Part shown: positions 2,623-56,978 of the stretch, piece by piece
How positions within the stretch are numbered: position 1 is the stretch's first letter
Layout: each line of letters begins with the position of its first letter
Source of the DNA: a bacterium
Lineage (GTDB): Bacteria > Patescibacteriota > Minisyncoccia > UBA6257 > JAGOQP01
NCBI GenBank assembly: GCA_021814695.1
Contig: JAKAHY010000002.1
Location: forward strand, 8,920 to 72,919
Reading direction: 5' to 3'
Length of the DNA: 64,000 bases
Notes under the pieces: model-generated
Seen by the model: only the letters and a program-made list of their open reading frames with translations
Databases searched by the model: none
What the model was told of the DNA's origin: nothing
Translations under genes and position numbers: made by a program

Positions 2623-2672
2623 AATGCTTCTTGTGCAAGGAGTGCTTGCACTACGAAGCCTTGGCGAAGTAG

Positions 2673-2988
2673 TGGAGATGGCGAGAGTTGAACTCGCGTC
2701 CAGAAAGAGGGATTGAAAGCGTCTACGGGCGTATCTTCTTTTGGAAGCTGATTTGCTTTCTGATTGTCCCTACGGATACGAAAGCGCTTTCCGTGGGTAA
2801 GCCTCAAATATAACACCGGCGATTTCCCCATGAGACATCGGGAGCCGATGGCTTACGCACGAACTAAAAAGTTCTTAAGCGTATGCAAGTGCTACATTTC
2901 TGTTAGCAGATTTGTTTTGGCGGATTTACAAGTCGCCGCTTGACCCGCAACTTTCAAAGAACTCTATCTGTCAAAGCCCAGCATCCCC
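2673..2988 (-). ncRNA. ssrA: tmRNA (SsrA), about 316 nt, encoding the tag ANRNVALAYA*
   Basis: 5' GGGGAUG pairs with 3' CAUCUCC-A and includes the G3·U Ala identity pair. T-arm is GCGAG-TTCAACT-CTCGC. 5' domain reads CUGGGCUUUGACAG. Tag ORF is GCU AAC AGA AAU GUA GCA CUU GCA UAC GCU UAA, followed by the hairpin GAACUuuuuaGUUC. It lies immediately 3' of smpB. Confidence 0.85.
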
Positions 2989-3426
2989 TTAGGCAATATG
3001 TTTTCTTACTTGGCGCTCGGTTTCCCTTTTTTTAATCGTTTCTCTCTTATCCGTTTTCTTCTTGTGAACGCCCAGTCCTATTTCAAGCTTTATTTTACCG
3101 CGCTTGTTATACAGCTTAAGGGGCACCAGAGTCAAGTTTTTGGATGATGCTTGACCGACAAGAGCGATAATTTCCGACTTTTTTGCCAAAAGTCGGCGCG
3201 ATCGGCGAGGATCGAAATCTTTGGGTGTATTTTTCTCCTGGTAGGGGCCAATTGTTGCGCCAACCAGCCAAAGCTGTCCTCCATAAATTTTAACCAACGA
3301 CCCGACAACACTGGCTTTACCGGAGCGGATAGCTTTAGCCTCATGGCCCAAAAGTTCAATTCCGGCATTTAAAGTGTCGGAAATTTCGTAATCAAAATAG
3401 GCTTTTTTGTTTTGGATTGATTCCAT
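2989..3426 (-). CDS. smpB: SsrA-binding protein SmpB
   Basis: YFDYEI.....GIEL.G.E.K......ASV.GS ... C-terminal basic tail; adjacent to the tmRNA. Confidence 0.95.
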   Translation of the reverse strand: MESIQNKKAYFDYEISDTLNAGIELLGHEAKAIRSGKASVVGSLVKIYGGQLWLVGATIGPYQEKNTPKDFDPRRSRRLLAKKSEIIALVGQASSKNLTLVPLKLYNKRGKIKLEIGLGVHKKKTDKRETIKKRETERQVRKHIA

Positions 3427-8396: not shown

Positions 8397-10580
8397 ATGA
8401 AAAAATATTCATTAATTGTGATTATCTTACTTGTTGTTGCAAGTATAGGGATTACCGCTATCTTTTCAAGTCAAGTGTCGATAACCGGATTTCTTTTGAG
8501 CGTTTACTCAACTGTTTCGGGGAGCAATCAAATACAGAGAGTAAATGCACAAACGACAGGCCAAGGAACCATATTATTCCAAGGCCAATTCGGTCATCTT
8601 GAATCGACCGGAAAGGTCACTACCGGAATTTCGGGCTTATCCGGACTTCCGGTGATGAAATTTGTTAAAGACCGTGACCTATCTAGCGATGAAAAAAATC
8701 AGATTAGAGTGGATGTTATTGAACATAACACTCCTTTTGAATTTGTAGTTGCAAAAAATATTTCGCTTGGAGAGGGTGTTAATTTTAATATTCCCGTAGG
8801 TTCGACATATAGATATAGTTTTTATGTTCACCCCGACTCGATTCCCTCCGGATGGGTTTATTATTCCGGTTGTTTAGAGACCGATGGGAATGTTTCGGTA
8901 CTGGCCGGTCAGCAAAGTACTTGCAGCATAGGATTTTATTTAAAGCCCGAAACAATCTCACCCCCTCCGGTCACATCAACATCTACGATCACGTCTACTC
9001 CTTCGGTAGGTGTTTCGGGAACTGTTGTCGGTGAAGATGCCAGCGCAGGATCGTTGCAGTTTGTAAAAAACGTTTTGGATTTAAGCTCACAAAGAAAGGG
9101 CATTATTTATGGAGTTTTGGACGCAAGAACCGTTAATTTGTATGGAAAAAATCTTCTGATAGTTGCTAGAGGTGGAGCTTACTCTGCTACCACTCCAACC
9201 TGGCATATGCTTGTTTATGATATAACCGATCCGCTTGCCCCGGTTCTTTTGAAGGATAATGATATGTCCGGAAGTGGCATAATCTATAGTTCTCCAATGA
9301 CCGGTTTGGCAGTGCTTGATGGCTTTAATTATGTATTTGTCCGTGGAAATGTCGGTTACGGTTCGTTTAAAATTAATCAGGACGGAACTGCGTCTCTTGT
9401 GAAAAGCTATAAATATTCTGAAGTTCAGCAGATACAGACAGATTTAATCAGGGGATTGTTCAACGGTCTGGATGGAAATATATACGGCTACGGAGGGTTT
9501 GTGCAGGATGGAGGACTCGTGCTTTATAACGTTTCCGATCCCGCTAATATTATTCAAGTTGGAACGTATACTAATGGTCTTGAACCAGCGATTGCCATCT
9601 ATGGACAAATTGGATTGAATCGCCAGAGCACTTGGGGCGTTGTTAAAGAAGGAGGCAAACTTTATCTTATTGCTCATGCGGACCAGTTGGTTCTGCGCCT
9701 TCATACGGATTATGATGGAATGATTTATGTTTTTGATGTGTCCAATCCGGCAAGTCCGCAGCTTTCACATATCTATAAAATGTCCAGCTCCTTTAATCAC
9801 CTTCCTTCCGATATGACTTCGTATGAGAAGATGTTTCTTTACGGAGGAGAAGCTAATATATCGGTTGATCCAATATCAAATAGAGTATTTGATTTTTACA
9901 GAACGGTTTTTGATTGGCAGGGACCCAATCAGCTTAAGATAAAAGACATTCCTAAAGGAGCCTTGTTTCGTTATAGAAATGGAATAGCCGTTCTTTCAAT
10001 AGGAATCGATGGTTCTTTGAAATCAAGTTCCAGTAACATATTATTGTGCGAAAGAATAGCCATTCAAGATAATGGGACGTCAGGCGAAGATAAATGTGAT
10101 ACAAAGAGTCCCGAAACGGTTGGGGGATATTATAGTTCCAGTCTTTATGGAAACAGGAATCCTCAAGAAAATTATAACGGAGTATTTCTTCTTGGCGACG
10201 TGAATAATGTCGGACATGTAGGGCTGTTAAAAAGCGATGGTAGTTTTGTTATCATACCCGATCCAACCGGAGAAATGCTTAAATTCAAATCTGTCTTGGC
10301 TGACCCGTCGTATTATTCCGATCCTGGTTTTCGTTCGTCTCCAATCAATGGCATTGTCACTCAAGTTGATAGCAAAACCTTTGCAATATTTCAGATTGAT
10401 AATTATTCCATAAGTGTTACAAAGCTAAATCTATCACAATCCATAACGAGCGTAACACAAAAATCTTCGCCACCTACCACAAATGCCCCTAGTTCATTAA
10501 ATACATCATCTCCTACTCAGACTCCATTTTCCTTCAGCTCGCTCCTGAGAATATTTCAGAGGGTGTTCAATAGTCAGTAA
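8397..10580 (+). CDS. Cell-surface protein, paralog C (close paralog of A)
   Basis: N-terminal 230 aa nearly collinear with paralog A; repeats VLYNVSDPANIIQVGTY and IYVFDVSNPASPQLSHIY; C-terminus ...TPFSFSSLLRIFQRVFNSQ. Confidence 0.8.
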   Translation: MKKYSLIVIILLVVASIGITAIFSSQVSITGFLLSVYSTVSGSNQIQRVNAQTTGQGTILFQGQFGHLESTGKVTTGISGLSGLPVMKFVKDRDLSSDEKNQIRVDVIEHNTPFEFVVAKNISLGEGVNFNIPVGSTYRYSFYVHPDSIPSGWVYYSGCLETDGNVSVLAGQQSTCSIGFYLKPETISPPPVTSTSTITSTPSVGVSGTVVGEDASAGSLQFVKNVLDLSSQRKGIIYGVLDARTVNLYGKNLLIVARGGAYSATTPTWHMLVYDITDPLAPVLLKDNDMSGSGIIYSSPMTGLAVLDGFNYVFVRGNVGYGSFKINQDGTASLVKSYKYSEVQQIQTDLIRGLFNGLDGNIYGYGGFVQDGGLVLYNVSDPANIIQVGTYTNGLEPAIAIYGQIGLNRQSTWGVVKEGGKLYLIAHADQLVLRLHTDYDGMIYVFDVSNPASPQLSHIYKMSSSFNHLPSDMTSYEKMFLYGGEANISVDPISNRVFDFYRTVFDWQGPNQLKIKDIPKGALFRYRNGIAVLSIGIDGSLKSSSSNILLCERIAIQDNGTSGEDKCDTKSPETVGGYYSSSLYGNRNPQENYNGVFLLGDVNNVGHVGLLKSDGSFVIIPDPTGEMLKFKSVLADPSYYSDPGFRSSPINGIVTQVDSKTFAIFQIDNYSISVTKLNLSQSITSVTQKSSPPTTNAPSSLNTSSPTQTPFSFSSLLRIFQRVFNSQ

Positions 10581-10668: not shown

Positions 10669-13600
10669 ATGTTGAGAAATCTTAAACACTTTAATCCGCC
10701 GGAAATTGAGGAAAAAGTTTTACAGCTTTGGAAAGAAAAAGGGATATTTCAAAAAACACTCAAAGTTCCAAAAGGAAAAAAGGCCCTGCCTACCGGCAGG
10801 CAGGCAAAAATATTTCGGTTTTGGGAAGGTCCACCGACAGCCAATGGCCGTCCCGGAATTCATCATATTTTAGCCCGTTCTTTTAAGGACGTTGTTTTGC
10901 GTTTTAAAACGATGCAAGGGTATACGGTTCCCCGTAAGGGTGGTTGGGATACTCATGGATTGCCCGTTGAAATCCAGGTTGAAAAGCAGCTCGGATTTAA
11001 AACAAAAAAAGATATAGAAGATTACGGAATAGCCGCATTCAACCAAAAATGTAAAGAATCAGTCTGGCTTTATCAAAGCGAATGGGAAAAATTGACCGAA
11101 CGCATGGGTTTTTGGCTGGATTTGAAAAATCCTTATGTCACATACCACAAAGATTACATAGAGTCGCTTTGGTGGATCATCAAACAAGTTTGGGATAAAG
11201 GGTTGATGTATCAAGGGCATAAAGTGGTTCCTTGGTGTACTCGCTGCGGGACAGCTCTTTCTTCCCATGAATTGGCTCAAGGATACAAAGAGCTTACCGA
11301 TACTTCTGTTTACATAAAATTTAAACTTCTTCCAAAACAAAAAATCGGTTCTTTTATAACCGATGATAAAACATACATCTTATCCTGGACGACGACTCCT
11401 TGGACTTTGCCCGGAAACGTCGCTTTGGCAGTCGGAAATAAAATCAAATATATTGCGGCAAAAATCGGAGGAGAGACTTTTATTATTGCGGAAGATCTTG
11501 CCGGATCGGTTTTGGGATCGGAAAATCATAAAGTTATCAATGAATTTAAAGGCGAGTCGATTTCAGGGAAAGAATACGCCCCACTTTTTGAAATTGCGGC
11601 ATTAAAAAAACCGGAATCGTACAAGGTATATCCGGCTAAATTTGTGACAACCACCGATGGAACGGGGGTGGTGCACACGGCCGTAATGTACGGAGAGGAC
11701 GATTATAACCTGGGAAAAGAAGTCGGACTTCCTCAGCATCATACGGTTACCGAACAAGGAACTTTCACAAAAGACGTTAAAGGATTTGAAGGGATGTACG
11801 TCAAAGCCAAGGAGACCGAGGATAAGATACTAGATTATCTAAAGAAAAATAATTTCCTTTTGCAAACACAGGCTTATACCCATGAATATCCTCATTGCTG
11901 GAGATGTGGAACTCCGCTTTTGTATTACGCGCGCAGTTCATGGTTTGTAGCGATGTCGAAACTGAAAGATAATCTGATCGAAAGCAACCAGGGAACCAAC
12001 TGGGTTCCGGCACATATCAAAGAGGGCAGATATGGAGAATGGCTCTCCGAAATTAAAGATTGGAATTTTTCACGGGAAAGATATTGGGGCACCCCACTGC
12101 CGATCTGGACGTGCGAGAATTGTGGAAACCATAAAGCTGTTGGAAGTTATAAAGAGCTTTCGGAACATCTTCCTTCTAGTACCAACAGATATATTCTTGT
12201 CCGTCATGGAGAAGCGGGGCAAAATGTTTCCAATATAATCAACTGCGACCCCAAAGATAAGGATAAATACCCGTTAACAACCAATGGAATAATCCAGGCG
12301 AAGAGAACTTCCCTGAGCCTCAAGAAAAAAATAAAAAAAATAGACGCGATTATCTCGTCGGATTTTATTCGGACAAAGGAAACCGCAAAAATTATCGGCG
12401 ATGAATTTGGAATAAAGAAAATAATCACCGATCCGCTTTTGAGGGAAGTTAACATGGGAGATTTTAACGGGGACAATGTTTCTCGTTACCACGAGTACTT
12501 TTCTTCGCTTGAAGAAAAATTTATGAAACGGACCCCTAACGGAGAAAACCTCAGAGATCTGGCCGCAAGAAGCTACGATTTTATACAAAAATGTGAAAAA
12601 AAATACAGCGGGAAAACTATTGTTGTGGTAGGGCATGAATATCCGCTGTGGATGGCGGAGACCGTTCTTTCTGGATGGAGTCAGGAAGAATCGGTGTCGG
12701 AAAAAGAAAAAAGAGGTCCCGATTTTATAGAAGTCGGAGGATTTGATTCCGTTACTTTTGTTCCGGCATCAAGAGATGAACAGGGAATCTGTGATTATCA
12801 TAAGCCATATGTGGATTCAATCAGCATCCCTTGCGAAAAATGCGGAAAAAAGATGAATCGAGTTAAAGAAGTTGCCGACGTATGGTTTGATTCGGGGTCA
12901 ATGCCATTTGCCCAAGATCATTATCCTTTTGAGAAGGGTGATAAAGTCGGGAAAGCGCCCCAATCGTTTCCGGCCGATTATATCTGTGAGGCAGTCGATC
13001 AGACCCGCGGGTGGTTTTACACTCTTATGGCCGTCTCTACATTATTGGATTATGAAACGCCGTATAAAAACGTCGTTTGCCTAGGGCATATAAACGACAA
13101 GCATGGACAGAAAATGTCCAAATCAAAAGGGAACATTGTTGATCCATGGATGATAATAGATAAATATGGCATTGATGCCGTTAGGTGGTATTTTTACACC
13201 GTTAATGCTCCGGGGGAGCCGAAGAATTTTGACGAGAATGAGGTTGCTAAAGTACTGAGAAAATTCAGCATGACTCTTTATAATTCGTTCGCGTTTTTGG
13301 CGCTTTATGGAAAACAGAAGGTAAGTATCCAAAAGAAACCTTCATCGCCGAATATTTTGGACAGGTGGATTTTGGCAAGGCTAAATCAAACAACTGTCGG
13401 AGTTTCGGACAAAATGGACGCATATGATTTCTTGGCTACCGGACAAATAATAGAATCGTTTATTGACGATCTTTCCAGATGGTACATTCGCCGATCGAGA
13501 AAGAGATTCCAAAAAATTTCGGATAAATCGGATTGGGGTACGGCGACCGGTGTTTTGGCGTATGTTTTGGCCGAATTTTCAAAAGTGATCGCTCCCTTTA

Positions 13601-14223
13601 CTCCATTTTTCGCCGAAGCTCTTTACAGATCCATAGCCGAATTTTGTTCGTTTAGCGCAAAAGAATCCGTTCATCTCGAATCATGGCCGGAGGGCAGGGT
13701 TTTTAATGACGATGCGGTTATGTCGGAAGCCATGAAACAGATAAGAGACTACGCCAGTGCTGTTTTGGCAAAAAGAGCCGAAGTTGGAATCAAAGTGCGG
13801 CAGCCTTTGAGCTTGTTGAAAATAAGAAGCATTAAGTCTAAAGAAAAAGACTCTAAACAATTATTAGAAGTGTTAAGGGATGAAGTTAACGTCAAAGAAG
13901 TTGTGATTGATCCAAAAATAGAAAATGAATTTGAGTTGGATATCAACATCACTCCGGAACTTAAAGCCGAAGGAATTTTGAGGGAAATAGCCCGGACAAT
14001 TCAGGAATTGAGACAAAGTTCGGCATGTGTTCCCAAGGATAAAATAGAAGTTCGCATTTCCGGACCTGCCGACATTGAAGCGGTGGTCAAAAACGGACAA
14101 GCCACGCTTTGCCAATACGTTAACGCCAAAAATATTCTTTTCGGTAAGAGCGGTAAATTTGATTCCGAAATTGAAACCAAAATTGATTCGTCAAAAATTT
14201 GGATAGGTTTAAGAAAAATATAA
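10669..14223 (+). CDS. ileS: Isoleucyl-tRNA synthetase (1184 aa) with an inserted histidine-phosphatase-like domain
   Basis: HIGH region PTANGRPGIHHILARS; KMSKS motif QKMSKSKGN; CP1/editing region; CxxC..CxxC zinc motifs (CENCG ... CEKCG); about 205 extra residues between the zinc knuckles. Confidence 0.95.
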   Translation: MLRNLKHFNPPEIEEKVLQLWKEKGIFQKTLKVPKGKKALPTGRQAKIFRFWEGPPTANGRPGIHHILARSFKDVVLRFKTMQGYTVPRKGGWDTHGLPVEIQVEKQLGFKTKKDIEDYGIAAFNQKCKESVWLYQSEWEKLTERMGFWLDLKNPYVTYHKDYIESLWWIIKQVWDKGLMYQGHKVVPWCTRCGTALSSHELAQGYKELTDTSVYIKFKLLPKQKIGSFITDDKTYILSWTTTPWTLPGNVALAVGNKIKYIAAKIGGETFIIAEDLAGSVLGSENHKVINEFKGESISGKEYAPLFEIAALKKPESYKVYPAKFVTTTDGTGVVHTAVMYGEDDYNLGKEVGLPQHHTVTEQGTFTKDVKGFEGMYVKAKETEDKILDYLKKNNFLLQTQAYTHEYPHCWRCGTPLLYYARSSWFVAMSKLKDNLIESNQGTNWVPAHIKEGRYGEWLSEIKDWNFSRERYWGTPLPIWTCENCGNHKAVGSYKELSEHLPSSTNRYILVRHGEAGQNVSNIINCDPKDKDKYPLTTNGIIQAKRTSLSLKKKIKKIDAIISSDFIRTKETAKIIGDEFGIKKIITDPLLREVNMGDFNGDNVSRYHEYFSSLEEKFMKRTPNGENLRDLAARSYDFIQKCEKKYSGKTIVVVGHEYPLWMAETVLSGWSQEESVSEKEKRGPDFIEVGGFDSVTFVPASRDEQGICDYHKPYVDSISIPCEKCGKKMNRVKEVADVWFDSGSMPFAQDHYPFEKGDKVGKAPQSFPADYICEAVDQTRGWFYTLMAVSTLLDYETPYKNVVCLGHINDKHGQKMSKSKGNIVDPWMIIDKYGIDAVRWYFYTVNAPGEPKNFDENEVAKVLRKFSMTLYNSFAFLALYGKQKVSIQKKPSSPNILDRWILARLNQTTVGVSDKMDAYDFLATGQIIESFIDDLSRWYIRRSRKRFQKISDKSDWGTATGVLAYVLAEFSKVIAPFTPFFAEALYRSIAEFCSFSAKESVHLESWPEGRVFNDDAVMSEAMKQIRDYASAVLAKRAEVGIKVRQPLSLLKIRSIKSKEKDSKQLLEVLRDEVNVKEVVIDPKIENEFELDINITPELKAEGILREIARTIQELRQSSACVPKDKIEVRISGPADIEAVVKNGQATLCQYVNAKNILFGKSGKFDSEIETKIDSSKIWIGLRKI
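10785..10804. repeat. 20-nt GC-rich near-perfect palindrome CCTGCCTACCGGCAGGCAGG inside ileS (encodes ..ALPTGRQAK..)
   Basis: Inverted-repeat arms CCTGCCTA/CAGGCAGG around CCGG; the same palindrome recurs at 36984..37003 in csaA. Confidence 0.6.
12175..12790 (+). other. Inserted histidine phosphatase (phosphoglycerate-mutase-like, branch 1) domain within IleRS
   Basis: YILVRHGEAGQN (RHG catalytic motif with N at +7) ... VVGHEYPLW (second His); inserted between WTCENCG and YHKPYVDSISIPCEKCG. Confidence 0.6.
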
Positions 14224-35772: not shown

Positions 35773-36822
35773 TTGTTTATGTCTTCGAATAAATCTCAAT
35801 CTATTCTGATAGTTCTTTTGCTGGTTTTTTTGCTGGCTATTTCTTTTTTTGTTATTGAACCATATTTAACCTCTATAATATTGGCAACGGTTTTTGCCAT
35901 TGTTTTTTGGCCGGTTTACAGACGGCTTTCTGGAATTATCAAGCTCGGGGGATTTGATGCGTTGATAATGGTCTTTCTTGTACTTGTCGTTTTTTTAATA
36001 CCTCTTACTTTTGTCGGTTCGAGGGTTTTAAGTGAAGCTTACAGCGCCTATAATTCAATTTTTAATGCAAACGGAAATGCTCAAATAACCTCCACTATCA
36101 GCTGGCTAAATCAAAAGATAAATGAATCAGCCCCGACTTTTATCGGTCCAATTGATTTGACTGGATATGCCAAGTCAATATTGGAATGGTTTTTGGGAAA
36201 TCTTGGCACAATCTTTACTGGAGTTGCCAGGGGATTATTTACTTTTGTTCTAAGCTTGTTTATGCTCTTTTATTTTTTCAGGGATGGAAACAAAATAAAA
36301 AAATTTCTTATTGAACATAGTCCGCTGAACGAACCTTACAATACCCGGCTTATAGAAAAAATACGGGAAGCAATTAATTCGGTAGTGAGAGGATCGCTTA
36401 TTGTGGCTTTGCTTCAAAGTATCGTGAGCGGAATCGGATTTTATATATTTGGAGTTCCCAATCCGTCTTTATGGGGAGGTCTGACTTTTGTTGCCGCTTT
36501 CGTTCCAACACTCGGGACTTCTTTAGTAATCGTTCCGGTGATTGTTTATATGTTTTTTGCATCAAACACTCTGATGGCCTTAGGTCTTGCCGTCTGGGGA
36601 ATACTTGCCGTTGGTTTGATAGATAATACTTTAGGGCCGATACTTGTCGGAAGGGGAATGAAAATCCATCCCTTGGTTGTCTTTATTGGAGTTTTGGGAG
36701 GAGTCAGTTTGTTTGGGCCGATAGGTTTTATTGTGGGACCGATAGTTTTTGCTCTTCTATACGCAGTATCGGATATTTATTTTGAATTTATAAAAAAAGA
36801 CAATCAATCCTCCGAAACTTGA
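35773..36822 (+). CDS. AI-2E family transporter (PerM/YhhT-like, UPF0118)
   Basis: 8-TM topology with the characteristic long first periplasmic loop. Confidence 0.8.
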   Translation: MFMSSNKSQSILIVLLLVFLLAISFFVIEPYLTSIILATVFAIVFWPVYRRLSGIIKLGGFDALIMVFLVLVVFLIPLTFVGSRVLSEAYSAYNSIFNANGNAQITSTISWLNQKINESAPTFIGPIDLTGYAKSILEWFLGNLGTIFTGVARGLFTFVLSLFMLFYFFRDGNKIKKFLIEHSPLNEPYNTRLIEKIREAINSVVRGSLIVALLQSIVSGIGFYIFGVPNPSLWGGLTFVAAFVPTLGTSLVIVPVIVYMFFASNTLMALGLAVWGILAVGLIDNTLGPILVGRGMKIHPLVVFIGVLGGVSLFGPIGFIVGPIVFALLYAVSDIYFEFIKKDNQSSET

Positions 36823-36855
36823 TTTTGCCCTTAAATTCAATAGAATTGAAACGTT

Positions 36856-37200
36856 ATGATAAATTATGAAACTTTTAAACAAGTTGAGTTAAAAGTCGCT
36901 AAAGTTTTAGAGGCCGAAAGAGTTGAGGGTTCCGAGAAGCTTTTAAAACTCAGGGTGTCTTTGGGAGCGGAGGAAGAAGCGGACCTGCCTGCCGGCAGGC
37001 AGGTTATTGCCGGTGTCGGAATCAAGTATCAGCCGGAAAATTTGGTCGGCAAAAACATTATTATTGTCGCCAACTTGGAACCGAGAAAGCTTATGGGATT
37101 GGAAAGCCAGGGGATGCTTTTGGCGGCAAGCAACGAAAATGAAGGGCCGATATTGTTGACGACAATGGAAGATATTTTGCCCGGTTCAAATATAAATTGA
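36856..37200 (+). CDS. csaA: tRNA-binding protein (CsaA/Trbp111-type OB-fold domain)
   Basis: FKQVELKVAKVLEAERVEGSEKLLKLRVSLG....IAGVGIKYQPENLVGKNIIIVANLEPRKLMG.ESQGMLLAA. Confidence 0.85.
   Translation: MINYETFKQVELKVAKVLEAERVEGSEKLLKLRVSLGAEEEADLPAGRQVIAGVGIKYQPENLVGKNIIIVANLEPRKLMGLESQGMLLAASNENEGPILLTTMEDILPGSNIN
36984..37003. repeat. 20-nt perfect GC-rich palindrome CCTGCCTGCCGGCAGGCAGG inside csaA (encodes ..DLPAGRQVI.., an apparent 5-7-aa insertion relative to the family consensus)
   Basis: Exact inverted repeat, 22 nt with the A/T flank; the same element occurs at 10785..10804 in ileS. Confidence 0.6.
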
Positions 37201-37281
37201 TCCAGAAATTACTAAATTCCGATTATAAAAATTTTGGTATTTGAATATTGAAGTTTGGAATTTGCCACATTTGTGGCTTTT

Positions 37282-37355
37282 GGGCCTGTAGTAAAACGGT
37301 ATTACGCAGCATTCGCATTGCTGAAGTAGGGGTTCAATTCCCCTCAGGTCCACCA
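37282..37355 (+). tRNA. tRNA-Ala (CGC), CCA encoded
   Basis: GGGCCTG (G3·U70) ... CAGCA-TTCGCAT-TGCTG ... AGGGG-TTCAATT-CCCCT-CAGGTCC-A-CCA. Confidence 0.9.
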
Positions 37356-37359
37356 AAAT

Positions 37360-37406
37360 TATAGTGACATTGCATGAGTGTGGGTTCGGTTCTCGCTGGA
37401 TCTACC
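37360..37406 (+). other. tRNA-like 3' fragment (T-arm-like plus ..CTACCA) immediately downstream of tRNA-Ala(CGC)
   Basis: ATAGTGACATTGCATGAGTGTGGGTTCGGTTCTCGCTGGATCTACCA, which is not the 3' end of the adjacent tRNA. Confidence 0.3.
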
Positions 37407-56279: not shown

Positions 56280-56978
56280 TTATGCCTTTGCCACCACTAA
56301 GCCGATTATTTTTTGGGCGCCATATTTTTTAAGAAGAAGAGAAATTTCGTTAAGCGTTGCCCCTGATGTTGAAACGTCATCTATCAGGATAATGTTTTTG
56401 CCCGAAACCGACTCCGGGCCGGTAATTTGAAAACATTCGGAAATATTTTTTATTCTTTCGGAAAAATCTTTGGTTTTGGCCTGGGGTGGATTATTTTTTA
56501 CTCTTTTCAGGACATCAAGACAGGGGAGAGAAAAATAATCCGAAACAACAGAGGCAATAATTTGCGCCTGATTGAATCCTCGGGCGCGAAATTTGGATTT
56601 ATGAAGGGGAACGAATGTTATAACATATCGGCTCAAATCGATTCCGGTTTCTTTAAGATATGAAATTAACATGGCACATAATATTGTTCCTATGCCCTCT
56701 ATTTTTTTATATTTAAATGTATGGATCAGGGACGGTATGGGTGCTTCAAATCTGCTTGCGGGCGCCAAGACATAGCTTGTGTCGTGGCATTTATCTGTCC
56801 CCGGCAGGCGGGACATACACTTCGGGCAATAAAGAGCCGAGTTGAGACGTATTTCATCAAAGCATGATTGGCAAAGAAATTGTTTCTGATCGGGAATGGA
56901 GGATTTGCAGTTTACGCATACAGGAGGAAAAACGGTGTCCGAGGCTAATTTATTCAATTGAGCGATGATTTTTATCAT
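56280..56978 (-). CDS. comFC: ComF family protein (ComFC-like phosphoribosyltransferase with N-terminal 4-Cys zinc finger)
   Basis: CVNCKS...CQSC zinc finger; PRTase motif IILIDDVSTSGATL. Confidence 0.85.
   Translation of the reverse strand: MIKIIAQLNKLASDTVFPPVCVNCKSSIPDQKQFLCQSCFDEIRLNSALYCPKCMSRLPGTDKCHDTSYVLAPASRFEAPIPSLIHTFKYKKIEGIGTILCAMLISYLKETGIDLSRYVITFVPLHKSKFRARGFNQAQIIASVVSDYFSLPCLDVLKRVKNNPPQAKTKDFSERIKNISECFQITGPESVSGKNIILIDDVSTSGATLNEISLLLKKYGAQKIIGLVVAKA

What the first reader, a model, noticed from the sequence alone, without database searches (positions are those of the whole stretch)
36984..37003. Second copy of the in-frame GC-rich palindrome, inside the tRNA-binding protein gene csaA
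This is a perfect 20-nt palindrome, 22 nt with A/T flanks: a-CCTGCCTGCCGGCAGGCAGG-t. The surrounding CsaA sequence (VSLGAEEEADLPAGRQVIAGVG) appears to carry a short insertion relative to the usual ..LG-EE--PRQIVSGI.. of this domain family. It matches the ileS copy at 17 of 20 positions, and the core GCCGGCAGGCAGG is identical.
Basis: partly seen in the sequence, partly recalled or inferred. Interest (0 to 1): 0.6.

Follow-up and report, generated by a model that had tools for sequence, protein, structure and literature searches.

The report
Cross-phylum 20-bp palindrome inserted in genes
The palindrome in this small tRNA-binding gene is one copy of a sharply defined 20-base repeat, found with the same sequence in many bacterial phyla, that sits in frame inside essential genes and adds a harmless six-residue loop.

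Summary
CCTGCCTGCCGGCAGGCAGG lies at 36984-37003 (22 nt with its A/T flanks) inside a 114-aa Trbp111/CsaA-type gene. A second copy with one mismatch lies in ileS at 10785-10804. None is expected by chance.

Both copies are 7-codon, in-frame additions compared with the closest homologs. The csaA insert falls in a beta-hairpin loop that solved Trbp111 lacks.

The unit ("PAL") is a discrete 20-mer. At 167 distinct sites found with the 18-nt core, the flanking C and G are nearly always present and the sequence beyond them is unrelated. It occurs in Patescibacteria, Bacteroidota (including cultured isolates), Omnitrophota, Planctomycetota, Bdellovibrionota, Proteobacteria and others, and in viral contigs.

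- It is mostly intergenic.
- In real genes (ileS, csaA, ftsK, gatB, rmlB) it is always read as L-P-A-G-R-Q.
- It is patchy among related genomes and shows decayed variants.
- About 8% of copies carry 7-bp flanking duplications.
- No gene is linked to it, and no paper in the searched library contains the sequence.

In seven csaA orthologs the six codons are identical although third codon positions elsewhere are saturated.

Best reading: a tiny non-autonomous mobile palindrome, tolerated in a loop. How it moves is unknown.

The parts
36984..37003 (.). PAL copy 1: the perfect 20-bp palindrome CCTGCCTGCCGGCAGGCAGG (22 bp with A/T flanks, 36983-37004). It is read on the + strand as (D)-L-P-A-G-R-Q-(V).
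   Evidence: 0 expected by chance
36976..36996 (+). The seven extra codons (E-A-D-L-P-A-G, 21 nt) that the window's gene has and the closest 107-aa orthologs lack. The last 7 nt of the palindrome (AGGCAGG) coincide with the family-invariant Arg-Gln codons.
   Evidence: DNA alignment with empty-site orthologs L246 and L001; loop table of 120 homologs; native R-Q codons
36856..37200 (+). Host gene: a 114-aa stand-alone tRNA-binding OB-fold protein (Trbp111 / MetRS-beta / CsaA family, PF01588).
   Evidence: The AF2 model places the insert in loop 36-47 between strands 30-35 and 48-52, with pLDDT below 50 at 41-45.
10785..10804 (.). PAL copy 2: CCTGCCTACCGGCAGGCAGG (G8>A, the commonest variant of the family). 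It is read as (A)-L-P-T-G-R-Q-(A) near the N-terminus of IleS.
   Evidence: The same variant recurs in L092, L093, L194, L044 and in 14 viral-contig copies.
10783..10803 (+). The seven extra codons (A-L-P-T-G-R-Q, 21 nt) in ileS. They are absent from the closest homolog (85% identical) and from nearly all of 120 homologs.
10669..14223 (+). Host gene ileS (1184 aa), which carries the second copy.

Best explanation
The palindrome is one copy of a dispersed family of a fixed 20-bp unit (here called PAL). PAL behaves as a very small, non-autonomous selfish DNA element.

Shown:
- New copies arise from existing copies, since variant subfamilies are amplified within single contigs.
- Most surviving copies are intergenic.
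- A minority sit inside genes, where the only survivors are stop-free, in frame, read as L-P-A-G-R-Q, and located in tolerant loops.
- In this gene PAL lengthens the beta-hairpin turn of the OB fold by seven residues and is translated.
- The right arm of PAL (AGGCAGG) coincides with the invariant Arg-Gln codons.

Inferred:
- The host protein gains nothing from the insert.
- The overlap with the Arg-Gln codons suggests that insertion or re-copying is anchored on sequences resembling a PAL half-site. That would also explain repeated occupation of the same codon in diverged orthologs and PAL-within-PAL nesting.
- A trans-acting, PAL-specific enzyme encoded elsewhere, patchily distributed and probably itself mobile, is presumed to copy or restore the unit. 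It was not identified.
For: - Discrete unit: at 167 distinct sites found with the 18-nt core, the flanking C is present in 166 and the flanking G in 163. Beyond those bases the flanks are unrelated.
A further 35 stretches came from viral contigs.
- Presence/absence: csaA orthologs 91-93% identical lack the 21 nt, and the closest ileS homolog lacks 21 nt.
- Patchiness: of 80 related csaA loci (769 kb), only one contig has intact copies (4 in 19 kb) and three have decayed ones.
- Gain/loss pattern: on a rough tree, filled and empty alleles are interleaved.
- Decay series and amplified variants.
- Not amino-acid constraint: the LPAGRQ codons are 18/18 identical in 21 ortholog pairs, while third positions elsewhere are 28-56% identical.
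- Intergenic bias: 61 intergenic sites against 17 in ORFs, with 31 sites unplaced.
- Single reading frame in real genes such as FtsK, GatB, RmlB and PMT.
- Insert lies in a loop: 1pyb gap and AF2 model.
- Transposition-like signature in a subset: 7-bp flanking direct repeats in 8.0% of sites against 0.4% of controls, and period-7 duplication in 9.4% against 1.3%.
- Self-targeting: PAL nested in PAL at L023, L048 and L026.
Against: - No mobilising gene was found. No protein family recurs near the 120 genomic copies, and a Y1 transposase seen in one locus is not associated with PAL.
- About 92% of sites show no target-site duplication, so a single classical transposition mechanism does not fit.
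- A 20-bp insertion would shift the frame. The in-gene net additions are 12, 18 or 21 nt, which a fixed-unit insertion does not explain without extra events.
- The long csaA loops share residues upstream of PAL (K-D-E-[AT]-[DN]) across lineages. This argues for one old insertion, and then perfect conservation of PAL needs selection or gene conversion rather than recent insertion.
- Copy number per complete genome could not be measured. Large chromosomes appeared only once in the truncated scan.
Confidence: 0.6

Rival explanations
1. PAL is a functional nucleic-acid site kept by selection wherever its partner exists. It could be a binding site for a dimeric DNA-binding protein, comparable to parS or an operator, or a structural hairpin. 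Coding sequences have accommodated it, and it decays where the partner has been lost.
For: - Nucleotides are perfectly conserved at the same codon in seven csaA orthologs whose synonymous sites are saturated.
- The unit boundaries are sharp and the sequence is identical across phyla.
- Two decayed copies kept their symmetry through paired changes: L243 (two complementary transition pairs) and L242 (T7>G with A14>C).
- The central CCGG is mutated less often than position 8/13.
- Many long records appear only once in the scan.
Against: - Locations are unrelated from genome to genome. They include tRNA pseudogene fragments, a tRNA variable loop and the interiors of essential enzymes.
- Close relatives lack it altogether.
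- Most mutated copies are not compensated.
- There is no linked gene.
- There is no positional preference relative to gene ends or promoters.
- It is not a terminator.
Confidence: 0.22
2. The palindrome arose locally and independently in each gene. Under this view, template-switch (quasi-palindrome) mutation copied the native Arg-Gln codons AGGCAGG in inverted orientation.
For: The right arm overlaps the native R-Q codons, and AGGCAG is the commonest native encoding at this position in orthologs without the insert.
Against: - An inverted copy of AGGCAGG would not give the central GCCGGC.
- It would not give the same 20-mer in ileS or in more than 160 unrelated sites, most of them intergenic and in other phyla.
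Confidence: 0.03
3. It is an assembly, library or adapter artefact: a self-complementary oligonucleotide ligated into reads.
For: A perfect self-complementary 20-mer with blunt, sharply defined ends and no target duplication at most sites looks like a synthetic linker.
Against: - The same in-frame site is occupied in orthologs from independent studies, and one such protein was seen on more than 24 contigs.
- Copies carry mutations and occur as decayed, still in-frame versions.
- It is present in cultured isolates and in long-read assemblies.
- It is absent from most related contigs of the same kinds of dataset.
Confidence: 0.02
4. It is an ordinary variable loop of the protein family whose coding DNA is palindromic by chance.
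For: The loop is variable in length in this family; loops of 113-114 aa with unrelated residues exist.
Against: - Zero matches are expected by chance.
- Codons are identical in diverged orthologs.
- The same unit occurs elsewhere in the window and in other phyla.
Confidence: 0.01

Closest known systems
Rickettsia palindromic elements (RPEs; Ogata et al. 2000, cited from my own knowledge, not read here)
   Same: Selfish palindromic repeats found both between genes and in frame inside essential protein genes, aminoacyl-tRNA-related ones among them. They are translated as extra surface peptides and show insertion polymorphism between relatives.
   Different: RPEs are roughly 100-150 bp, imperfect, confined to Rickettsia and a few relatives, and diverge quickly. 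PAL is 20 bp, a perfect palindrome, and has the same sequence across many phyla.
REP / REPIN sequences mobilised by RAYT (Y1 HUH) transposases (own knowledge)
   Same: Short (20-40 bp) GC-rich palindromic repeats that are non-autonomous, mostly extragenic, lack a target-site duplication, and sometimes occur as doublets. PAL doublets are seen in L132 and L126.
   Different: REPs are imperfect hairpins with a conserved 5' tetranucleotide (GTAG). They are specific to a species or genus, number in the hundreds per genome, and accompany a RAYT gene flanked by REPs. PAL has no such tetranucleotide, has an identical sequence across phyla, also occurs inside genes, and the one Y1_Tnp family tested is not associated with it.
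Short GC-rich palindromic elements of organelle genomes: yeast mitochondrial GC clusters, Neurospora PstI palindromes (CCCTGCAGTACTGCAGGG), Allomyces double-hairpin elements, Volvox palindromic repeats (own knowledge)
   Same: Palindromes of about 18-50 bp, much more GC-rich than the host genome. They are scattered between genes and next to tRNA genes, occasionally in frame in coding sequence, are polymorphic, and their mechanism of spread is unknown.
   Different: Those are confined to organelles of particular eukaryotic lineages. PAL is in free-living and symbiotic bacteria and in virus-like contigs, and it is also found in GC-rich genomes.
MITEs (miniature inverted-repeat transposable elements)
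   Same: Non-autonomous, consisting of terminal inverted repeats, moved in trans. A subset of PAL copies has a fixed-length (7-bp) flanking duplication.
   Different: MITEs are 50-500 bp, have internal sequence and show a consistent target duplication. PAL would be two abutted 10-bp ends with nothing between them, and most copies lack any duplication.
parS-type centromere sites and similar conserved palindromic protein-binding sites (own knowledge)
   Same: A 16-20-bp palindrome with the same sequence in many phyla, sharply bounded, in unrelated flanks, and often inside coding sequence.
   Different: parS copies are few, cluster near the origin and are found in nearly all members of a lineage together with ParB. 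PAL is absent from most close relatives, sits in tRNA fragments and virus-like contigs, and has no linked gene.

Membership tests
REP/REPIN-RAYT | Imperfect palindrome preceded by a conserved tetranucleotide (GTAG-like) | tested here: not met
   The palindrome is perfect with no bulge. The flanking bases beyond the 20-mer carry only a weak A/T preference.
REP/REPIN-RAYT | A RAYT (Y1 HUH transposase) gene in the genome, typically flanked by the repeats | tested here: not met
   A tblastn search with the one Y1_Tnp protein met (L242) finds homologs only in four PAL-free loci and one PAL locus, and none in the window. No gene family recurs next to PAL. Limits: only 64 kb of this genome and 8-kb pieces of the others were available.
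REP/REPIN-RAYT | Family specific to a species or genus, with hundreds of extragenic copies | tested here: not met
   The sequence is identical in many phyla. There are 2 copies in 64 kb here, and about 1 in 5 of the placed copies lie inside ORFs. The genome-wide count is not obtainable with these tools.
Rickettsia palindromic elements | In-frame insertion into protein-coding genes, translated | tested here: met
   csaA, ileS, ftsK, gatB, rmlB and PMT all carry the unit in frame.
Rickettsia palindromic elements | Element length about 100-150 bp, with sequence similarity to the RPE families | tested here: not met
   The unit is exactly 20 bp. No Rfam family covers it in six PAL-rich loci.
MITE | Terminal inverted repeats plus a target-site duplication of constant length | tested here: inconclusive
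   The two 10-bp arms could be terminal repeats. A 7-bp duplication is 20-fold enriched but present at only about 8% of sites.
MITE | A related autonomous IS with the same ends | tested here: inconclusive
   No isolated half-sites a kilobase or more apart were found in the loci held. Whole genomes were not searchable.
Intrinsic terminator | GC-rich hairpin followed by a T run, downstream of a gene | tested here: not met
   No terminator-like site was found in 36700-37400. The copy lies inside the ORF.
parS-like binding site | A cognate binding protein, with sites conserved in position among relatives | not testable with these tools
   Position is conserved only at the csaA codon, and most relatives lack PAL. 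Binding cannot be tested here.
Trbp111/CsaA tRNA-binding domain (host gene) | PF01588 OB-fold domain over the whole protein | tested here: met
   Pfam E=9e-24 over residues 12-111; 1pyb E=7e-28.

The most novel reading that the evidence does not exclude
PAL is a previously undescribed kind of mobile DNA, the smallest known: a bare 20-bp palindrome with no internal sequence. Under this reading it is copied or restored by an unidentified PAL-specific enzyme, has crossed between at least a dozen bacterial phyla (perhaps through virus-like elements or predator/episymbiont contact), and can colonise essential genes because it is stop-free and is kept or re-copied at half-site-like codons (AGG-CAG). 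Its sequence would then stay perfect for far longer than neutral DNA.
Probability: 0.35. Interest if true: 0.9.

Novelty: new variant of a known kind. Interest (0 to 1): 0.78.

Why it matters
Short palindromic selfish repeats are known, for example REP, the Rickettsia elements and organelle GC clusters. Each known family is confined to one lineage and drifts quickly.

PAL is different. It is a fixed 20-bp unit with the same sequence in candidate-phyla-radiation bacteria, cultured Bacteroidota, Planctomycetota, Omnitrophota, predatory bacteria and virus-like contigs. That implies either a very widely travelling copying enzyme with strict specificity or an unrecognised, widely shared DNA-binding function.

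Either case would be testable. Correlating PAL presence with gene content across genomes should identify the partner.

There are practical consequences as well:
- The unit explains recurrent 'LPAGRQ'-type loops in proteins of uncultured bacteria.
- It marks insertion-tolerant loops in essential enzymes.
- It is a caution for alignments and for horizontal-transfer detection, because identical 20-mers occur in unrelated genomes.

Tried and rejected
- **Hairpin-loop targeting.** By eye many flanks looked like inverted repeats. Folding the joined 30+30-nt flanks gave no more cross-pairing than random positions (8.0 against 8.5 pairs, p=0.33). Rejected.
- **A general target-site duplication.** Only about 8% of sites have one, always 7 bp. 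It is kept as an unexplained subset.
- **A 21-nt unit (A+PAL or PAL+T).** A on the left or T on the right occurs at 59% of sites, fewer than the 67% expected from independence. Rejected.
- **A linked gene.** All-against-all BLAST of ORFs from the 120 genomic loci found that no family occurs in more than 5 loci.
- **RAYT/IS200 association.** Y1_Tnp homologs lie in PAL-free loci.
- **Separated half-sites, as would flank a full-length element.** Only 14 stray half-sites were found, mostly truncated or decayed copies.
- **Known RNA families.** Rfam found nothing at PAL in six PAL-rich loci.
- **Terminator function.** No terminator-like site.
- **Cultured plasmid and phage records.** Only chance partial matches, with no full 20-mer among the rows listed.
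- **Literature.** No paper in the searched library contains CTGCCGGCAGGCAG, LPAGRQ, or a relevant use of the half-site. Keyword searches gave nothing relevant.
- **tRNA interruption.** Most 'tRNA' contexts are 5' pseudogene fragments. Only tRNA-Met in L150 looks intact, with PAL as an extra variable arm.
- **A shared site in the PMT-like proteins L049, L053 and L077.** The alignment is too weak to say.

Full report
**1. The observation**

The 20-nt perfect palindrome CCTGCCTGCCGGCAGGCAGG lies at 36984-37003 and extends to 22 nt with the flanking A and T. A search allowing three mismatches finds two copies in the window: this one, and CCTGCCTACCGGCAGGCAGG at 10785-10804. None appeared in 100 dinucleotide-preserving shuffles.

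The true figure is 19/20, and the 13-nt 'core' differs at one base. The window is about 41% G+C, so the unit (80% G+C) stands out.

**2. The host genes and the size of the inserts**

The palindrome lies in frame in ORF 36856-37200 (+), which is 114 aa and reads ...LGAEEEADLPAGRQVIAGVG.... The whole protein is a PF01588 tRNA-binding domain. Its best solved relative is Aquifex Trbp111 (1pyb, E=7e-28), whereas CsaA proper scores about 1e-6. The 'csaA' label is therefore right as to fold and family, but the protein is of the Trbp111 / MetRS-beta type.

- The 1pyb alignment has a 7-residue gap exactly at EADLPAG.
- An AlphaFold model places residues 36-47 as the loop between strands 30-35 and 48-52, with pLDDT below 50 at 41-45.
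- The closest homologs split into 114-aa proteins that have the segment and 107-aa proteins, 91-93% identical over aligned residues, that lack it.
- At the DNA level the window has 21 extra nucleotides (36976-36996) compared with L246 and L001.

The second copy lies near the N-terminus of IleS (KKALPTGRQAKIF). Nearly all of 120 homologs lack this segment. The closest, 85% identical, lacks exactly 21 nt.

**3. The unit is a fixed 20-mer shared by many phyla**

Almost all came from different species.

- Patescibacteria: Parcu-, Wolfe-, Uhr-, Davies-, Doudna-, Shapiro-, Yanofsky-, Giovannoni- and Campbellbacteria, WWE3, Saccharibacteria and Peregrinibacteria.
- Bacteroidota, including cultured strains: Winogradskyella echinorum, Flagellimonas yonaguniensis, Longitalea luteola, Flavivirga sp., Aquiflexum lacus, Agriterribacter humi and Aestuariivivens sediminis.
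- Other groups: Omnitrophota (including a single-cell genome), Planctomycetota, Verrucomicrobia, Bdellovibrionales, Gamma- and Deltaproteobacteria, Thermodesulfovibrionales, Ignavibacteria, Elusimicrobia and Chloroflexi.

Some of these assemblies are long-read. A scan of viral contigs found 35 more stretches, one contig holding six copies in 29.5 kb.

At 167 distinct sites retrieved with the 18-mer, the base before it is C in 166 and the base after it is G in 163. Beyond that, the flanks are essentially random, with only a modest A...T preference (26% of sites). The unit is therefore a sharply bounded 20-mer, which I call PAL.

No cultured plasmid or phage record contains it among the rows listed. 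No paper in the 8-million-paper library contains the sequence or the peptide.

**4. Where copies lie**

I placed 109 copies in loci below 55% G+C using simple ORF calls:

| Position | Copies |
|---|---|
| Intergenic, total | 61 |
| – between tandem genes | 42 |
| – between convergent genes | 10 |
| – between divergent genes | 9 |
| Internal to long ORFs | 14 |
| Last 15 codons of an ORF | 3 |
| Could not be placed | 31 |

In ORFs that are demonstrably real genes, the frame is always L-P-A-G-R-Q, although all three frames are stop-free in either orientation. Those genes are the FtsK motor domain, the GatB catalytic domain, dTDP-glucose dehydratase, a PMT-family glycosyltransferase, and the two window genes. 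The GatB and RmlB proteins are again about 7 residues longer at that point than solved homologs.

Several copies lie in the D-loop of 5' tRNA pseudogene fragments next to intact tRNAs. One lies in the variable loop of an otherwise normal tRNA-Met, which ARAGORN calls as 92 nt with PAL and 72 nt without it. That is a net insertion of exactly 20 nt.

**5. Signs that the family is copied and then decays**

Among 80 loci (769 kb) encoding relatives of this csaA gene, only one contig has intact copies: four within 19 kb, one of them at the csaA site. Three others have decayed copies.

Secondary copies within the 8-kb genome pieces carry 0-3 mismatches. Independent sites in the viral set compare as follows:

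| Form | Count in viral contigs |
|---|---|
| Perfect | 41 copies in 35 stretches |
| G8>A / C13>T variant | 14 copies, about 11 independent sites |
| C10>T control | 2 independent sites |
| C6>T control | 1 independent site |

So copies decay, and position 8/13 is either a mutational hot spot or marks a subfamily. That variant is the one in the window's ileS. It is amplified within single contigs, which points to copying from existing copies.

PAL nested inside PAL occurs: CCTGCCTGCCG + PAL + GCAGGCAGG in L023 and L048, and a longer nested form in the rmlB gene of L026. In some genomes PAL is the centre of a longer local repeat (L036, L083, L146, L252/L253).

**6. The csaA site in detail**

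Among 120 homologs the loop takes four forms:

- short (G-x-E-K-RQ);
- LPAGRQ, in about 20 homologs;
- a graded series of near-LPAGRQ loops (LPATRQ, LPAVRQ, LSAGRQ, LPVDRQ and others), in about 18;
- other long loops.

DNA was retrieved for a subset:

| State of PAL at the csaA site | Loci |
|---|---|
| Perfect | window, L247, L241, L004, L194 |
| One mismatch at base 1 | L002, L244 |
| 3-4 mismatches | L242, L243, L164, L172 |

L242 still encodes LPAGRQ through synonymous changes, one pair of which is complementary (T7>G with A14>C). L243 is a perfect palindrome with two complementary transition pairs.

Across the seven orthologs with an intact LPAGRQ, third-codon-position identity outside the insert is 28-56%. 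Conserved L/P/A/G/R/V/T/S residues use the same codon in only 9-53% of cases. The six insert codons, by contrast, are 18/18 identical in all 21 pairs. The identity is therefore not explained by amino-acid constraint or by neutral descent.

On a rough neighbour-joining tree the filled alleles form one large clade plus at least four scattered occurrences. The window's own group is interleaved with empty alleles.

The last seven bases of PAL, AGGCAGG, coincide with the Arg-Gln codons that are invariant in the family. AGGCAG is the commonest native encoding in empty alleles. The net length gain differs among lineages: +12, +18 and +21 nt.

**7. Mechanism: what is shown and what is inferred**

Shown:
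- a fixed unit;
- copying from copies;
- decay;
- presence/absence differences between close relatives;
- survival inside genes only when in frame and in loops;
- translation of the insert, which follows because removing the 20 nt would break the conserved downstream frame.

Tested and negative:
- flanks are no more self-complementary than random positions, so hairpin loops are not the target;
- there is no recurrent neighbouring gene;
- there is no association with the Y1 transposase family met in L242;
- it is not a terminator.

Positive but partial: exact or one-mismatch 7-bp direct repeats immediately flank PAL at 8.0% of sites, against 0.4% of control positions. The peak is at 7 bp and not at 5, 6, 8 or 9. 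Period-7 tandem duplication across the joined flanks occurs at 9.4% of sites against 1.3%. This looks like a staggered-cut target duplication, possibly with repeated hits leaving heptamer arrays. The other roughly 92% of sites have none.

Inferred: a trans-acting, PAL-specific activity either inserts the unit or re-copies it onto PAL-like sequences. The second option would account for three things together: the overlap with native AGGCAGG, PAL-in-PAL nesting, and the persistence of perfect copies at one codon in diverged orthologs. I could not identify that activity.

**8. Rival readings**

The main rival is that PAL is a selected functional site, either for protein binding or as a structural hairpin. 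The codon-level conservation and the paired changes in two decayed copies fit this. The scattered and gene-disrupting locations, the absence from most relatives, the mostly uncompensated variants and the lack of positional logic argue against it.

Three other readings are contradicted:
- Local origin by template switching does not explain the same 20-mer at unrelated sites.
- Artefact does not fit the mutated and decayed in-frame copies, the independent datasets (more than 24 contigs for one ortholog), or the isolates and long-read assemblies.
- Chance is excluded.

**9. Comparison with known systems**

The following comparisons rest on my own knowledge of the literature.

In what it does to genes, PAL resembles the Rickettsia palindromic elements: in-frame, translated, in essential genes. 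In size and extragenic habit it resembles REP sequences. In being a short GC-rich palindrome scattered in a less GC-rich genome by an unknown mechanism, it resembles the organelle elements (yeast GC clusters, Neurospora PstI palindromes, Allomyces double-hairpin elements).

It fails the defining features of each family:
- it is 20 bp rather than about 100-150 bp;
- it has no GTAG-type leader and no RAYT association;
- it is not confined to a lineage.

I therefore file it as a new variant of the known kind 'short selfish palindromic repeat', not as a member of any named family. Its identity across phyla and its bare-palindrome structure are the unusual features.

**10. Limits**

- The genome scan was truncated, so total numbers and copies per genome are unknown.
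- Many taxon labels come from MAG submitters.
- ORF calls in GC-rich loci are unreliable, so those loci were excluded from the context counts.
- The csaA tree rests on about 100 alignment columns.
- The literature search covers open-access papers only.

Noticed in passing
window 12193-12687 (IleS residues 509-673): The isoleucyl-tRNA synthetase carries a complete histidine-phosphatase (His_Phos_1, PF00300, E=4e-28) domain inserted in the middle of the catalytic domain. This is an unusual fusion or insertion for IleS.
   Followed up: partly
L004 about 3240-3290 (Wolfebacteria csaA ortholog, P0099): The same gene has a second, unrelated insertion of about 16 residues (FTLRSDSPQQDSGQAGK) in another loop. 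Other homologs carry SGQA/TGQAG-type peptides (P0064 TNLPTGQAGLPAGRQ, P0054, L196, L217). These look like frame-shifted or tandem PAL copies, or a sister element.
   Followed up: no
L108 1815, L088 346, L134 8396, L126 10596/11254, L149 897 and others: PAL is often flanked by tandem heptamer repeats whose sequence differs from site to site, for example (AATTACG)n, (TCTAAAA)n and (GGTGAGA)n. These may be footprints of repeated 7-bp target duplications.
   Followed up: partly
L150 2262-2333 and L127 about 8580-8660 (viral contigs): A tRNA-Met gene carries PAL as a 20-nt extra arm in its variable loop and is still recognised as a tRNA (92 nt).
   Followed up: partly
window 10792; L092 4005/5137; L093 1062; L044 3289; L194 8712/15875/16115; L248-L259: The same single change (G8>A, equivalent to C13>T on the other strand, turning GCCGGC into RCCGGY) recurs far more often than other transitions. 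It is either a deamination or methylation hot spot or an amplified subfamily.
   Followed up: partly
L242 15820-16590 (-): A 256-aa Y1 (HUH) transposase-like gene (PF01797) lies 5.5 kb from a decayed PAL. Its homologs are in PAL-free loci, so it is probably unrelated.
   Followed up: yes
window 56795-56814: A GC-rich hairpin, CTGTCCCCGGCAGGCGGGACA, lies inside a 232-aa ORF on the minus strand (encoding ...SRLPGTD...). It shares CCGGCAGGC with the centre of PAL. This may be coincidence.
   Followed up: no
window 2672-2988 (-) and 1971-2118: A tmRNA gene (tag EAYPRKALSYP) lies here, and next to it is a 150-nt stretch of unusually high G+C for this genome.
   Followed up: no
L146 9001-10441 (viral contig 3300037242_000417): An inverted repeat of about 80 nt with PAL at its centre flanks a 1.4-kb segment. 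A third copy of the repeat is in L154. In this genome PAL is part of a larger repeat family.
   Followed up: partly
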